From Eledone cirrhosa (Eukaryota), in NCBI GenBank assembly GCA_964016885.1, contig OZ024742.1, forward strand, positions 208,878,001-208,942,000: DNA of 64,000 nucleotides. The letters run 5' to 3'. This document shows positions 10,860 through 40,518 of the stretch, piece after piece; position 1 is the stretch's first letter; every line of letters starts with the position of its first letter. The translations under genes and the position numbers were made by a program. A model generated the notes under the pieces. That model worked only from the letters and a program-made list of their open reading frames with translations. It ran no database searches and was not told where the DNA came from.

Positions 10860-12165
10860 AATTATGTATCTATTGTGCATAGACATTCTATGACTAATAG
10901 TAATCTATCAAATACAACAACTCTTGCCAGTAAAATATGGCAACTTATGAATGCAGGCACTAAATATGAGATCAGTTGGAACATATTATCATTTGTAAGG
11001 CCTATCAAACTGGTATGTCCCATTGTAGGCTCTGTAATATGGAACTCTTCCAAATTCTTAATTTTAGTAAAACCCTTCTTAACAGCAAAATTGAGCGAAC
11101 TATCTTTTGCCAGCATAAATCAGCAACGAAATTCCTGAACTTTAGACCAACTTAACTCCATTTTCTATTCCTTATTTTATACTTTTAGCACCTATTACGA
11201 TGTCACATTATTAAAACTTCATATTTACGTAAGAATAACCTAAAAACATTTGTATTAACATCATTGTTGGACGCCATGCTTTCTAGCATAGTTACGCCCC
11301 TTTACAGTCTGAGTTCAAATCCCGCCGAGGTTAACTTTGCATTTCATCCTTACGGGGTCGATAAAATAAAGTACCAGTAATGTACTGGATATTTGCTGGC
11401 CTTGTGCCTAAAGTAGAAACAATTATTTATATTTTTATTTGTATTTACATGATTTATTATCTTATATGTATACACCTCTCACCATTTGTCTTTGTATTTC
11501 TCCACTTAAACATATTTCATCTCGATTATTTTACCCTATAGTTTAATACATCTCAAACTAGCTATGGTGCGTAGTAATGTTTATTTCTCCGTCTGTTTAG
11601 TTTCTTTTCTCTCTTCTTCATATCCCCATATTCATGATGAATTTCTATCCTCTCTGCTTCCTCATCCCTCTTAATTGTCCTCTATTTCTTTCTCATCTTC
11701 TTTACTTATCCTTCCTCTCTGCCTATGATATATCCCCCCTTCTCTCTTCTATATATATTTTATTATTATTAATATTATATTTATTTATTTTGATGTGATT
11801 GTTTGATTTCGTAAATTTTACCGGTTATATATTTAACTATATCTGCGAACCTTCTTTCGTCATTTTCTTTCTTTCTCTCCCATTTTCATCTGTTCTCCTT
11901 CCTTTATTTATTTATTTATTTATCATTAATATTATTATTGATGTAGTAATTAAAAGTTTTAAGTTTACCGTTACGCATATATTTTATATTTCTTATTTGT
12001 CTGTGATGAAATTATGGTACTTAGATGTATTGTAAATTGAGTTGTACTGTCTCCAGTATTTAGCAATTTATAGACATTTCTATCATTTAAACAATTGTAA
12101 GACTGTAATTAAATATCATTGTTTTGTACTGTCAACTATGTTATTCTTCACTCTTTTATATATAT
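10860..12165 (+). mobile_element. PLE 3' fragment (endonuclease C-terminus + pLTR)
   Basis: TTLASKIWQL..YEISWNIL..CRLC..SFCQHK; decayed HHR-like trace ~11999-12103; SINE inserted at 11268. Confidence 0.7.
11268..11428 (+). mobile_element. tRNA/CORE-type SINE (5'-truncated)
   Basis: B-box-like gagttcaaatcc, ccgaggttaactttgc..gtcgataaaataaagtaccag, agaaacaattatt tail. Confidence 0.85.
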
Positions 12166-12301
12166 ATATATATATTAGGGTAAACATTGATGCAATTCAA
12201 TTCAAGCACTCAACGTACCTTTTCCACATAGGAGTGACGGAGTAAATATCGAATAAGGAAAAGCGAAGTAGTTTCAGATGTTCAAGTCCTTTAATAATAA
12301 T

Positions 12302-12375
12302 GCTGTGATATATATTTCAATGACGACACTGGCCACACTGTTCTGTGTGCGAGTGTCGTGTCATCATCAGACAGC
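12302..12375 (-). ncRNA. Type I hammerhead ribozyme
   Basis: gctgt-CTGATGA-tgacacgacact..agtgtcgtcatt-GAAA-tatat-ATC-acagc. Confidence 0.82.
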
Positions 12376-13479
12376 TTGTTACATAATAAGGTTATGTTTC
12401 CGAGGCAATTCAAATTGAATCGACATGGGAACGGATGAAGTTCGTGCTTTTGGGTTTTTCTTCCGTTCCCTTGTGAGTACCAATTCACCCCCACCGGTCT
12501 GCACAAGCGCATGTCCGAAGGAATTTGACCATTAGCCACCGCAGATTTCAACGAAATTCGCTGTCAGTTCACCCTCTCAGCCAAAACAATGGCCCACCTA
12601 TGCCTTACCAAAGTTTACTGCTACCCATCACGACTGTGGCAGTCAGCCAAAAGCCAGAGGGGATGGGAGGGTGTTAGGTTTTATAGGTCATAATACTACC
12701 TTTCACTAAGCGTTGACAGAAAGACTGACCATCAACTCATAAGGGAAAATAAACTTAATTCTAGGTACCATGGTTTTACATTGGAAGTTAAGAGTGAGAG
12801 TTGGAAATAAAAATTAAAAATTAAAATCCTAAATCAAATATCAGAGATTATAAATTAAACAATTAAAAATTAAAAAATGTTTCAAGTGATAATTCGGATT
12901 GAGTAAAAATATAGATTGAAGTGAGTAAATAATATGGAGCAAGATGTTTAAGTAATAAGTTCTGAGAGGGATTCTAGTGTCACAGTTACTCTATCCACAT
13001 ATTGAACGACAGTGCCGTACATTATAACGGAGGGCAGACTACAGGGTTCAAGGCATTAGTCAATCTGGTACAGTCATAATTTCCATCACATGGAACAAAA
13101 TCAAAGAAAAACAGACATAATGTACACAAAAGAAAAGAAAAGAAGAGAACCAACAGTGAATAAATGCAAAAACACAGAGTACATATATGCAAAATGATAC
13201 ATATGATTGTCCATCTGTCCATGTATAGATTGAATTGAGGGGGCTTCTGTTCAAATGCGATTTGGTGCAGGAAAATAGGGTTTATCTTATTTTTTGTTTC
13301 CGCGTATTTATCCTGCCGAAAGTTACTATTACGCCCGTCCAGTGTCAGGGATTTTCATGCAATTCAATTCAAGCACTCAACGTACTTTTTCCACATAGCA
13401 GTGACGGAGTAAATATCGAATAAGGAAAAGCAGTGTCGTCATTGAAATATATATCACATCATTATTATTAAAGGACTTG

Positions 13480-13655
13480 GATTGGCAGTATCGGTAGAGG
13501 GTCGGACGCCATGCTTTCCAGCATAGTTACGTCCCTTTACGATCTGAGTTCAAATCCCGCCGAGGTTGACTTTGCCTTTCATCCTTACGGGGTCGATAAA
13601 ATAAAGTAGCAGTAATGAACTGGTGATTGCTGGCCTTGTGCCTAAAGTAGAAACA
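13480..13655 (+). mobile_element. SINE with 19-bp target-site duplication
   Basis: TSD attattattaaaggacttg at 13461-13479 and 13656-13674. Confidence 0.92.
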
Positions 13656-14872
13656 ATTATTATTAAAGGACTTGAACATCTGAAACTACTTCACTTTTCC
13701 TTATTCGATATTTACTCCGTCACTCCTATGTGGAAAAAGTACGTTGAGTGCTTGAATTGAATTGCATCAATGTTTACCCTAATAATTTAGCTCCAATTAG
13801 TTGAGCGCTCTATGATGTAACCGATATGGTGGAGAAGAGAGGAACCAACCAAGAGCTACCCCGGAAATTCCCTCTACCATGGGGATGAAAACCCCTGACA
13901 CTGGACGGGCGTAATAGTAACTTTCGGCAGGATAAATACGCGGAAACAAAAATAAGATAAACCCCTATTTTCCTGCACCAAATCGCATTTGAACAGAAGC
14001 CCTCTCAATTCAATCTATACATGGACAGATGGACAATTATATGGATCATTTTGCATATATGTACTCTGTGTTTTTGCATTTATTCACTATTGGTTCTCTT
14101 CTTTTCTTTTATTTTGTGTACTTTATGTCTGTTTTTCTTTGATTTTGTTCCATGTGATGGAAATTATGACTGTACCAGATTGACTAATGCCTTGAACCCT
14201 GTAGTCTGCCCTCCGTTATAATGTACGGCACTGTCGTTCAATATGTGGATAGAGTAACTGTGACACTAGAATCCCTCTCAGAACTTATTACTTAAACATC
14301 TCTCTCCATATTATTTACTCACTTCAATCTATATTTTTACTCACCTCAATCCGAATTATCACTTGAAAATTTTTTTAATTTTTAATTGTTTAATTTATAA
14401 TCTCTGATATTTGATTTAGGATTTTAATTTTTAATTTTTATTTCCAAATCTCACTCTTAACTTCCAATGTAAAACCATGGTACTTAGAATTAAGTTTATT
14501 TTCCCTTATGAGTTGATGGTCAGTCTTGCTGTCAACGCTTAGTGAAAGGTAGTATTATGACCTATAAAACCTAACACCCTCCCATCCCCTCTGGCTTTCG
14601 GCTGACTGCCACAGTCGTGATGGGTAGCAGTAAACATGGGTAGGGCATAGGTGGGCCATTGTTTTGGCTGAGAGGGTGAACTGACAGCGAATTTCGTTGA
14701 AATCTGCGGTGGCTAATGGTCAACTTTCTTCGGACATGCGCTTGCGCAGACCGGTGGGAGTGAATTGGTACTCACAAGGGAACGGATGAAAAACCCAAAA
14801 GCACGAACTTCATCCGTTCCCATGTCGATTCAATTTGAATTGCCTCGGAAACATAACCTTATTATGTAACAA

Positions 14873-14946
14873 GCTGTCTGATGATGACACGATACTCGCA
14901 CACAGAACAGTGTGGCCAGTGTCTTCATTGAAATATATATCACAGC
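14873..14946 (+). ncRNA. Type I hammerhead ribozyme
   Basis: Inverted copy of 12302-12375: gctgt-CTGATGA..GAAA-tatat-ATC-acagc. Confidence 0.8.
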
Positions 14947-14993
14947 ATTATTATTAAAGGACTTGAACATCTGAAACTACTTCGCTTTTCCTT

Positions 14994-15031
<38 letters not shown>

Positions 15032-31236: not shown

Positions 31237-31463
31237 AATATGGTTTTATAAATATAGTTTCCATTTGTTAATATCGTATTTTTACTCCAAATATTTGTTG
31301 AGTGCTTTATATCAGTTATAAAAATATTTGCTTGTTGTATCCCAACAATTTAAATAGAACTTTACATATATGTATATATATGACCAAATATTAATACGGC
31401 ACATTGAATATAGTTTTACAATAGATTAAAAGCACTCTACAGTAAAGTTTTCTGGAGTTATTA

Positions 31464-31795
31464 TTATTCAGAATAATAATAAACGAAGACATTCACATAG
31501 TCAAAATATGTTTTATTATATATATTTCGAAGTTAACGTGCTGTTTTTTCAGTACGTCCTCATCAGATAAAATACATGAATTGATGTATGACATACGTCA
31601 ACGGTCTTGATGGTTCAATTCCAGTACTGCCAATACTGGAATTGAACCAAAAAACCGTTGAGGTATGTCATACATCAATTCATGTATTTTATCTGACGAG
31701 GACGTACTGAAAAAACAGCACGTTAACTTCGAAATATATATAATAAAACATATTTTGACTATGTGAATGTCTTCATTTATTATTATTCTGAATAA
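31464..31795. mobile_element. ORF-less fold-back element with an HHR on each strand
   Basis: Arms 31464-31626 / 31634-31795; HHRs at 31511-31572 (-) and 31687-31748 (+): ttttat-CTGAYGA-ggacgt..cttc-GAAA-tatat-ATA-ataaaa. Confidence 0.88.
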
Positions 31796-31869
<74 letters not shown>

Positions 31870-39669: not shown

Positions 39670-40189
39670 TTAGGTTTGTTGGTTCACCACTGGATAGAAA
39701 TGGTCATTCCGTATGGTCAATCCTAGTGTAATATTGTGAAGAGTACTCAACGCCGTGCAGTTCATCTTCGTTTGTGTAGTTGGTGGTGCGAATACGGGGT
39801 TAATTATAAATGAAATAACAGGAGGCTGGACTGGTGTATATCCTTGAAATGTTTATTATACTATGATCATTTCAATGACCAGGTTCCATATGAATACGGT
39901 GATATCATCAGGTATTGGAATATAACAAAGGAATATGTAAAAAGCCATGGATCCGAAAAATCAAAGACAGAGAGGACGGCTGACCAACTAGCTTCTCAGC
40001 CAGCCGCCCTCAAAGTCAGCCGTCTTCTCTGTCTCTGATCTTTCGGACCCATGGCTTTTTACATATTCCTTTGTTATATTCCAATACCTGATGATATCAT
40101 CGGATTTATATGGAACCCGGTCATTGAAATGATCATAGTATAATAAACCTTTCAAGGATTTACACCATTCCAGCCTCCTGTTATTTCAT

Positions 40190-40194
<5 letters not shown>
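39670..40194. mobile_element. ORF-less fold-back element with decayed HHRs
   Basis: Arms ~39806-39984 / ~40015-40194; caatac-CTGATGA..GGAA-cccg-GTC-attg at ~40082-40126. Confidence 0.8.
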
Positions 40195-40412: not shown

Positions 40413-40458
40413 ATTAGCCTACAATGTTTCGTCCCATTAAGGACTCATCAGGGCAATT
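40413..40458 (-). ncRNA. Type I minimal hammerhead ribozyme
   Basis: gcc-CTGATGA-gtcc ttaatg ggac-GAAA-catt-GTA-ggc. Confidence 0.9.
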
Positions 40459-40472
40459 AATCTTATCTGTTT

Positions 40473-40518
40473 AATTGCCCTGATGAGTCCTTAATGGGAC
40501 GAAACATTGTAGGCTAAT
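40473..40518 (+). ncRNA. Type I minimal hammerhead ribozyme
   Basis: Identical to the minus-strand copy. Confidence 0.9.

What the first reader, a model, noticed from the sequence alone, without database searches (positions are those of the whole stretch)
12175..14996. ~1.29 kb non-coding unit bounded by two HHR cleavage sites (large retrozyme-like element)
Seen: on the plus strand the HHR 3' half with ATC site (cut after 13455) is followed by unique sequence and a full HHR (cut after 14941). The distance is 1486 nt, or 1291 nt without the 195-nt SINE+TSD. An inverted near-identical ~1.1 kb copy lies upstream. I see no RT or endonuclease motif and only short ORFs. Known: animal retrozymes are HHR-bounded non-autonomous units, usually a few hundred nt, that form circular RNAs. 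Inference: an unusually long, young non-autonomous PLE partner.
Basis: partly seen in the sequence, partly recalled or inferred. Interest (0 to 1): 0.75.

Follow-up and report, generated by a model that had tools for sequence, protein, structure and literature searches.

The report
Oversized hammerhead retrozyme with SINE hotspot
This is one of many hundreds of copies of a 1.3-kb protein-free jumping element that carries a predicted self-cutting RNA motif and is longer than any animal retrozyme unit in the papers read; it is likely pasted in by Penelope-type enzymes from a possibly circular RNA, and about one in five copies of its predicted cut site has a short repeat inserted five bases downstream, likely added later.

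Summary
The coordinates hold, with one correction: the upstream 'hammerhead' here is only a 3' half. The 1291-nt unit is a dispersed, non-coding family (1087 exact plain cut-site junctions), found in tandem at several loci. A 66-73% identical sister family has colinear 1376-1411-nt units and no ORF, so it is unlikely to be an autonomous element's UTR. Insertions sit in (TA)n with two inverted arms; 52 of 53 have one end at +56 and the other at +132 after the cut site, a Penelope-type footprint. Arms of one locus share private variants and cDNA reads through the cut site, which fits a re-ligated circle but does not prove it; no RNA data were available. A tRNA-type SINE occupies +5/+6 in 278 of 1365 junctions (20%), versus 6/255 at an internal site, 11/129 background sites and 0/30 in the sister family. 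These look like independent later insertions at a preferred (ATT)3 target, not ribozyme-linked capture. The partner enzyme was not found. The scan noted shorter retrozymes (310-534 nt) with the same two-armed footprint before. Verdict: oversized variant of a known kind.

The parts
10875..12175 (+). Host site: 3' end of an older Penelope-like element with C-terminal endonuclease (frame 10970-11152, long 3' UTR), ending in the (TA)n into which the retrozyme inserted; carries its own SINE at 11266-11427
   Evidence: (26159 candidates); 'Neptune-type' is my reading of the Cys motif and domain order, and Pfam gave no hit for the 576-aa relative
12175..13358 (-). Inverted arm: 5'-truncated unit, full hammerhead (12375-12302, predicted cut between 12307 and 12306), 'long' 3' end at +132 running into (TA)n
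13354..13430 (-). Short inverted piece of the tail (unit positions +44 to +120) at the joint between the arms
13431..13460 (+). 3' half of a hammerhead only (helix II 3' strand, GAAA, ATC at 13453-13455, mutated helix I strand); 5' end of the forward arm
13461..13479 (+). Left copy of the 19-nt target-site duplication of the SINE
13480..13655 (+). tRNA-type SINE, slightly 5'-truncated, with a B-box match and an A-box-like stretch read by eye; about 105 copies per Mb in random samples
   Evidence: ARAGORN finds no tRNA gene
13656..14946 (+). One full 1291-nt non-coding unit (38% GC), starting 5 nt after the cut position
14778..14821 (+). 13-bp hairpin upstream of the ribozyme, kept with changes on both strands in the sister family
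   Evidence: pairing read by eye
14873..14946 (+). Type I hammerhead motif: helix I GCUGU/ACAGC, CUGAUGA (14878-14884), long helix II with U-U at its base, GAAA, palindromic helix III, predicted cut after 14941
14947..14997 (+). Tail up to the 'short' 3' end at +56, followed by (TA)n from 14998

Best explanation
This is one two-armed insertion of a multicopy, protein-free 1.29-kb repeat unit with a predicted hammerhead ribozyme, likely copied into (TA)n microsatellites by a Penelope-like element's enzyme from an RNA that is likely cut and re-joined into a circle. Shown: copy number, tandem units, no ORF, (TA)n flanks, two fixed 3' ends (+56 and +132) used one per arm, read-through of the cut site, relatedness of arms. 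Inferred: the enzyme nicks both strands of (TA)n; each 3' end primes on an AU-rich patch of the RNA 56 or 132 nt past the cut site; both cDNAs run back through the ribozyme junction, sometimes for more than one unit, and join where they stall. Since both priming sites lie just downstream of the cut, a cleaved linear monomer could give at most 132 nt, so the template must be a circle or an uncut multimer (circle about 55%). The SINE is not part of the unit: it was likely inserted afterwards, many times independently, by ordinary target-primed insertion at the ATTATTATT that happens to follow the cut site.
For: Copy number and anatomy. Tandem units. End asymmetry 52 of 53 two-armed insertions, P 1e-14 against independent choice. 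Same-locus pairs share private variants in 26 of 53 pairs (99 over 41.7 kb of columns; 35 come from two near-identical pairs in L061) versus 38 of 600 sampled between-locus pairs (40 over 423 kb); the window's arms are each other's nearest of 64. Read-through: of 102 junctions not classed as SINE, 93 have hammerhead sequence upstream and 4 of the 9 others are mutated SINE ends. Ribozyme: among 131 copies, N7 is the only core position with a subfamily-level change; helix II has AU-to-GC in 10 and GU-to-GC in 11 of 85 distinct copies. Sister family keeps the first 400 nt at 73-95% and the last 200 nt at 83-87%, against 53-78% in the middle. SINE: 278/1365 vs 6/255 internal, 11/129 background, 0/30 sister with ATTATCATT; duplications 0-20 nt with modes 14 and 17-19 (n=56); polyphyletic, at least 4 changes forced; units on both sides of an internal SINE rank nearest in 5 of 12. 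Penelope anatomy as in PMC8557442 (passages).
Against: No autonomous partner sharing the ribozyme or tail was found. The hammerhead lacks the G10.1-C11.1 pair (U-U), the window's subfamily has lost one more helix II pair (col 23-63 unpaired in 46 of 85), and the minimum-energy fold sequesters the core. Only 1 of 9 Xenopus retrozymes cleaved in vitro (10.64898/2026.07.22.740005, parts 1-3 of 5 read). The circular monomer folds no better than 12 shuffles (-302.8 vs -295.6 +/- 10), unlike the highly self-paired circles described. The same-locus partner is nearest in only 45 of 106 comparisons, and some arms (L061 inverted arm, third unit of L011, L016) clearly come from other templates. L061's five units include two near-identical pairs (0.2% and 1.0%), so part of that array is likely later DNA duplication. 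Covariation counts reflect few events among related copies. One locus joins the unit at +24 to the 3' end of an RTE-like LINE (L062).
Confidence: 0.78

Rival explanations
1. Same non-autonomous Penelope passenger, but the template is a linear uncut read-through transcript of tandem copies, with occasional jumps between RNAs; the ribozyme is weak or has another role and no circle forms.
For: Atypical helix II base and sequestered core; no special fold of the circle; some units within a locus come from different templates; tandem source arrays exist.
Against: Core and helices are kept over 30% divergence. Adjacent tandem units often share private variants (L018, L021, L242, L064, L005). A purely linear route can only shorten arrays unless jumps add units (inference).
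Confidence: 0.3
2. The unit is only the long pseudo-LTR or UTR of an autonomous Penelope-like element.
For: Ribozyme type, tail and tandem/inverted anatomy are those of Penelope-like elements (PMC4209133, PMC8557442, passages). Only 40 of 2439 candidates were scored, so a rare parent could be missed.
Against: Ribozyme-to-ribozyme units are closed without an ORF in many loci and in the sister family. Penelope ORFs near the unit are nested insertions of another family with its own ribozyme (L196 with a duplication, L197, L257).
Confidence: 0.07
3. The SINE is captured during reverse transcription, because the ribozyme-cut RNA end makes the enzyme switch onto SINE RNA.
For: The site is 5 nt from the cut. 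Occupancy is 2.4 times background (P 6e-4), and higher still if only young SINEs count (22/33 vs 5/32 in the youngest, weakly supported clade). If one junction of a locus has a SINE, the next has one in 11 of 22. Some arms end inside or at the SINE (L031, L058, L261, L267, L268). L273 has the same breakpoint twice.
Against: Duplications stop at 19-20 nt, as for background copies. The sister family has the same ribozyme, one changed target base and no SINE. Paired SINEs in one locus differ in sequence and mostly in 5' joint. Flanking units stay same-template. An unrelated site in a Penelope 3' UTR holds the SINE in 3 of 15.
Confidence: 0.1
4. The unit is mobilised by an RTE-type LINE that also inserts at (TA)n.
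For: L062: cut site plus 24 nt joined to a 420-nt RTE-like 3' end that runs into (TA)n.
Against: One case. Two fixed internal 3' ends, tail-out inverted arms and partial tandems match Penelope-like elements, not LINEs.
Confidence: 0.06

Closest known systems
Metazoan non-LTR retrozymes (Cervera and de la Pena 2020, PMC7229834, passages and Discussion read; review PMC7761336, passages; Li, Clavereau and Pollet 2026, 10.64898/2026.07.22.740005, parts 1-3 of 5 read)
   Same: Non-coding tandem units, each with a type I hammerhead; low GC; U-U at the base of helix II as in axolotl HHR_Amex2; proposed dependence on Penelope-like elements.
   Different: Unit 1291 nt (sister 1376-1411) versus 150-450 bp and 51-972 bp reported; the 2026 screen capped the repeat period at 1000, so such units were invisible to it. 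Mostly dispersed two-armed insertions with fixed ends. Expression, cleavage and circles untested here. Supplements of these papers were not read and may list longer units.
Endonuclease-bearing Penelope-like elements (Neptune, Naiad, Penelope/Poseidon; Craig et al. 2021, PMC8557442, passages; Cervera and de la Pena 2014, PMC4209133, passages)
   Same: 5' truncation, partial tandems, inverted 5' copy, a tail at one end only, (TA)n targets, hammerhead with short helix I, long helix II and palindromic helix III.
   Different: No RT or GIY-YIG ORF. The two ends differ by 76 nt, against the 30-40 bp tail described. G10.1-C11.1 is absent.
tRNA-derived SINEs with microsatellite-like 3' ends (octopus SINEs of Ohshima and Okada 1994, seen only as a citation in PMC4758252; the family name was not established here)
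   Same: B box, ATT-type 3' end, duplications of about 10-20 nt, repeated insertion into the same target.
   Different: Here it fills one fixed site of another mobile element in about 20% of copies. A search for retrozyme + SINE + insertion + hotspot found only an unrelated sugar beet paper (listing only).

Membership tests
Metazoan non-LTR retrozyme | Type I hammerhead motif in each unit | tested here: met
   (by sequence; atypical helix II base; not found by Rfam)
Metazoan non-LTR retrozyme | [quoted passage not shown] | tested here: met
   Family level: L011, L061, L063, L065, L201, L212 and others. Not met by the window copy, whose upstream motif is a half.
Metazoan non-LTR retrozyme | No protein-coding capacity | tested here: met
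Metazoan non-LTR retrozyme | Low GC (under 45%) | tested here: met
   38%
Metazoan non-LTR retrozyme | Small unit (150-450 bp; up to 972 bp reported); descriptive rather than mechanistic | tested here: not met
   1291 nt, sister family 1376-1411 nt; hence filed as a variant
Metazoan non-LTR retrozyme | Highly self-paired monomer RNA | tested here: inconclusive
   Circular fold within 1 SD of 12 crude shuffles
Metazoan non-LTR retrozyme | Self-cleavage of the RNA | not testable with these tools
   needs in vitro transcription
Metazoan non-LTR retrozyme | Expression as linear and circular monomers | not testable with these tools
   no RNA reads were available to lay
Metazoan non-LTR retrozyme | Absence of LTR, PBS and PPT | not tested
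   No LTR-type structure is seen in the alignments; PBS and PPT were not searched
Autonomous Penelope-like element | ORF with RT and GIY-YIG endonuclease | tested here: not met
Autonomous Penelope-like element | Partial tandem and inverted 5'-truncated structure | tested here: met
Autonomous Penelope-like element | Tail extension at one end only | tested here: met
   52 of 53 two-armed insertions; 76-nt difference
Autonomous Penelope-like element | Microsatellite (TA)n target (Neptune, Naiad) | tested here: met
PLE minimal hammerhead | Conserved G10.1-C11.1 pair | tested here: not met
   U-U in nearly all of 131 copies
PLE minimal hammerhead | Palindromic helix III / loop 3 | tested here: met
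   AUAUAUAU; the sister family's AUAUGUAU pairs with G-U

The most novel reading that the evidence does not exclude
A 1.3-1.4 kb class of animal ribozyme circles, missed by screens capped at 1 kb, has persisted without coding through 30% divergence and is written into DNA by a Penelope enzyme priming one circle twice at fixed sites. Its cut-site junction is a real landing pad for a SINE beyond sequence preference (for example because nascent retrozyme insertions are targeted), making a three-way parasite system.
Probability: 0.15. Interest if true: 0.75.

Novelty: new variant of a known kind. Interest (0 to 1): 0.5.

Why it matters
Animal retrozymes are described as small, and their link to Penelope-like elements rests on co-occurrence and pLTR similarity. 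This family extends the size range past the 1-kb ceiling of the one systematic screen read. Its insertions give hard numbers for how Penelope-type integration makes inverted arms and one-sided tails: two priming sites 76 nt apart, one per strand, both downstream of the ribozyme cut. That makes the circle-versus-multimer question testable with a defined RNA. The SINE hotspot, with a natural one-base control in the sister family, is a clean read-out of SINE target choice.

Tried and rejected
No RNA holder listed; this says nothing on expression. Two listed runs of unknown kind, one sample, cover all 30 bins of the locus as contigs, which shows presence only. Rfam at E<=1 misses this hammerhead. 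Partner search: the window's Penelope relic and relatives (15 + 4 loci), a hammerhead scan of about 0.85 Mb and a profile search showed no family sharing the tail or body. ORFs next to copies (L184/L196, L186/L197, L157, L170, L257) were rejected as separate or nested elements. My first private-variant counts (small set, overlapping loci not merged) are superseded. RNA-editing scars: no A-to-G excess (singletons A>G 47 vs T>C 57; shared 1 vs 2). A template switch at the SINE looked possible from two loci but failed on 12 loci. 'C before ATTATT' does not explain the hotspot by itself (C|ATTATTATT 3 of 36). Occupancy of internal versus terminal junctions could not be counted genome-wide. 7 of 92 distinct hammerhead rows were left out of alignment A1 because they looked shifted or partial. 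Paper searches: retrozyme+octopus, hammerhead+Penelope+octopus (18), retrozyme+SINE+insertion+hotspot (64), Penelope-like+twin priming (65), non-autonomous+Penelope+hammerhead+microsatellite+tail (78); none of the listings or passages seen describes this family. Look-up of earlier scan notes by sequence found nothing.

Full report
Observation. Reading left to right: (TA)n; an inverted arm at 12175-13358 with a full hammerhead motif; a 77-nt inverted piece; 25 nt of hammerhead 3' strand ending in ATC at 13455; a SINE with an exact 19-nt duplication; one full 1291-nt unit; a full hammerhead motif with ATC ending at 14941; 56 nt of tail; (TA)n. The upstream motif is a half and cannot cut in cis. 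The insertion lies in the (TA)n at the 3' end of an older Penelope-like element. The host is a 3.0-Gb animal genome. That it is a cephalopod is my recalled impression from the SINE and the wording of earlier scan notes, and was not tested.

Family. A DNA search gave 2439 candidates, of which 40 were scored, at 91-100% identity, nearly all 5'-truncated and sharing the 3' end. Exact patterns count 1087 plain cut-site junctions and 278 with the SINE, with 0 for reversed controls. Tandem ribozyme-to-ribozyme units occur at several loci. L061 has five, but two pairs are near-identical, so part of it is likely later duplication. A sister family (1516 candidates, 40 scored) is colinear at 66-73% with units of 1376-1411 nt and no ORF of its own. 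Its first 400 nt are 73-95% identical and its last 200 nt 83-87%, against 53-78% in the middle. In 30 loci picked by the unit's 5' part and 34 picked by the cut site, the unit never led into its own ORF; nearby Penelope ORFs were separate or nested. These are samples, so a rare autonomous parent is not excluded.

Ribozyme. Among 131 copies only N7 of the core shows a subfamily-level change. On 85 distinct copies the proposed structure is 90% paired, with AU-to-GC in 10 and GU-to-GC in 11 copies; these reflect few events among relatives. It resembles the Penelope minimal type (short helix I, long helix II, palindromic helix III; PMC4209133, passages), but has U-U instead of G10.1-C11.1, as in axolotl HHR_Amex2 (PMC7229834, passages). 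Against activity: the window's subfamily lost another helix II pair, the lowest-energy fold sequesters the core, Rfam misses it, and 8 of 9 Xenopus retrozymes did not cleave in vitro (10.64898/2026.07.22.740005).

Insertion mechanism. 3' ends cluster at +56 and +132 after the cut, each beside an AU-rich patch that can pair with (TA)n. Of 53 two-armed insertions, 52 have one of each (P 1e-14); the window's insertion also does. This is the one-sided tail and inverted 5' copy described for Penelope-like elements (PMC8557442, passages). Same-locus pairs share private variants in 26 of 53 cases against 38 of 600 between loci, and the window's arms are mutual nearest neighbours; but the partner is nearest in only 45 of 106 comparisons and some arms come from other templates. 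Copies read through the cut site: 93 of 102 junctions not classed as SINE have hammerhead sequence upstream, 4 of the rest are mutated SINE ends, and one (L235) may be a jump from a cut end. A cleaved linear monomer primed at +56 or +132 could give only that much cDNA, so the template is a circle or an uncut multimer (inference). I put the circle at about 55%. The partner enzyme was not found, although Penelope-type hammerheads are abundant in random samples of this genome.

SINE hotspot. Occupancy at +5/+6 is 278 of 1365 (20.4%). Controls: 6 of 255 at an internal ATTATT of the same unit, 11 of 129 ATTATTATT sites in 703 kb of evenly spaced genome samples, and 0 of 30 junctions in the sister family, where the target reads ATTATCATT (that set was picked by another method). 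Fisher P values are 7e-16, 6e-4 and 2e-3. The junction SINEs are polyphyletic and younger than background copies (5.7% vs 10.2% mean distance). Their duplications run from 0 to 20 nt, stacks of two or three occur, and units on either side stay same-template in most of 12 loci. This fits repeated DNA-level insertion at a preferred target. Left unexplained: a 2.4-fold excess over background, clustering within loci (11 of 22 neighbouring junctions; older loci could explain it), arms that end at the SINE, and the twin breakpoint in L273. An unrelated Penelope UTR site is filled in 3 of 15 copies, so such rates are not unique to ribozymes. A SINE promoter is unlikely to transcribe the unit, because a T4 run lies about 45 nt downstream (sequence; established polymerase III termination).

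Comparison. It works like a metazoan non-LTR retrozyme and meets the sequence-level criteria, except size: 150-450 bp in PMC7229834 and 51-972 bp in the 2026 preprint, whose screen was capped at period 1000. The Discussion of PMC7229834 mentions circRNAs 'from 150 to >1000 nt' without tying the upper figure to an animal monomer. Supplements were not read. Earlier notes of this scan describe 310-534 nt families with the same two-armed footprint; they are unchecked and were seen after I had mapped the two fixed ends, but before I counted the pairing.

Verdict. Real, and a new variant of a known kind. What is new here is the size, the long non-coding history shown by the sister family, and a quantified SINE target site. 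Cleavage, expression and circularity are untested. Interest 0.5.

Noticed in passing
window 10875-12175 (+): 3' end of an abundant Penelope-like element (26159 candidates for its endonuclease end) with a decayed hammerhead near 12000-12105; its UTR holds the same SINE at one site in 3 of 15 copies.
   Followed up: partly
window 40415-40515: Near-perfect palindrome made of two inverted hammerhead-like halves (weak Rfam Hammerhead_3 match, E 0.05; fold z -20).
   Followed up: no
window 31179, 31692 (+), about 31570, 28650 and 590 (-): Further minimal hammerhead motifs of other families; random genome samples carry roughly one per 15-25 kb.
   Followed up: no
L062:81-620: Unit joined at +24 after the cut site to a 420-nt RTE-like LINE 3' end that ends in (TA)n; the position equals the usual far end of the SINE duplication.
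   Followed up: partly
L196 and L197: A Poseidon-like Penelope element with its own hammerhead, nested in one copy with a duplication of about 22 nt and joined to the 5' end of another; a fragment of a similar element follows L257.
   Followed up: partly
L273:1440-1580 and 2792-2935: Both junctions of one locus have the cut site replaced by a SINE fragment at the same breakpoint, yet the fragments differ at 6 of 60 bases.
   Followed up: partly
L281/L282 (one locus): Head-out inverted pair in which each arm has an internal SINE-bearing junction followed by a nearly full unit.
   Followed up: no
unit positions about 1245-1265 (window 14900-14920): Several arms stop or invert within helix II of the ribozyme (window, L039, L046, L163, L174, L182, L190, L259), suggesting a stall point for reverse transcription.
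   Followed up: no
window 482-754/4000-4272, 6629-6870/8118-8359, 39805-40194, 31459-31800: Other near-perfect inverted repeat pairs, probably other mobile elements.
   Followed up: no
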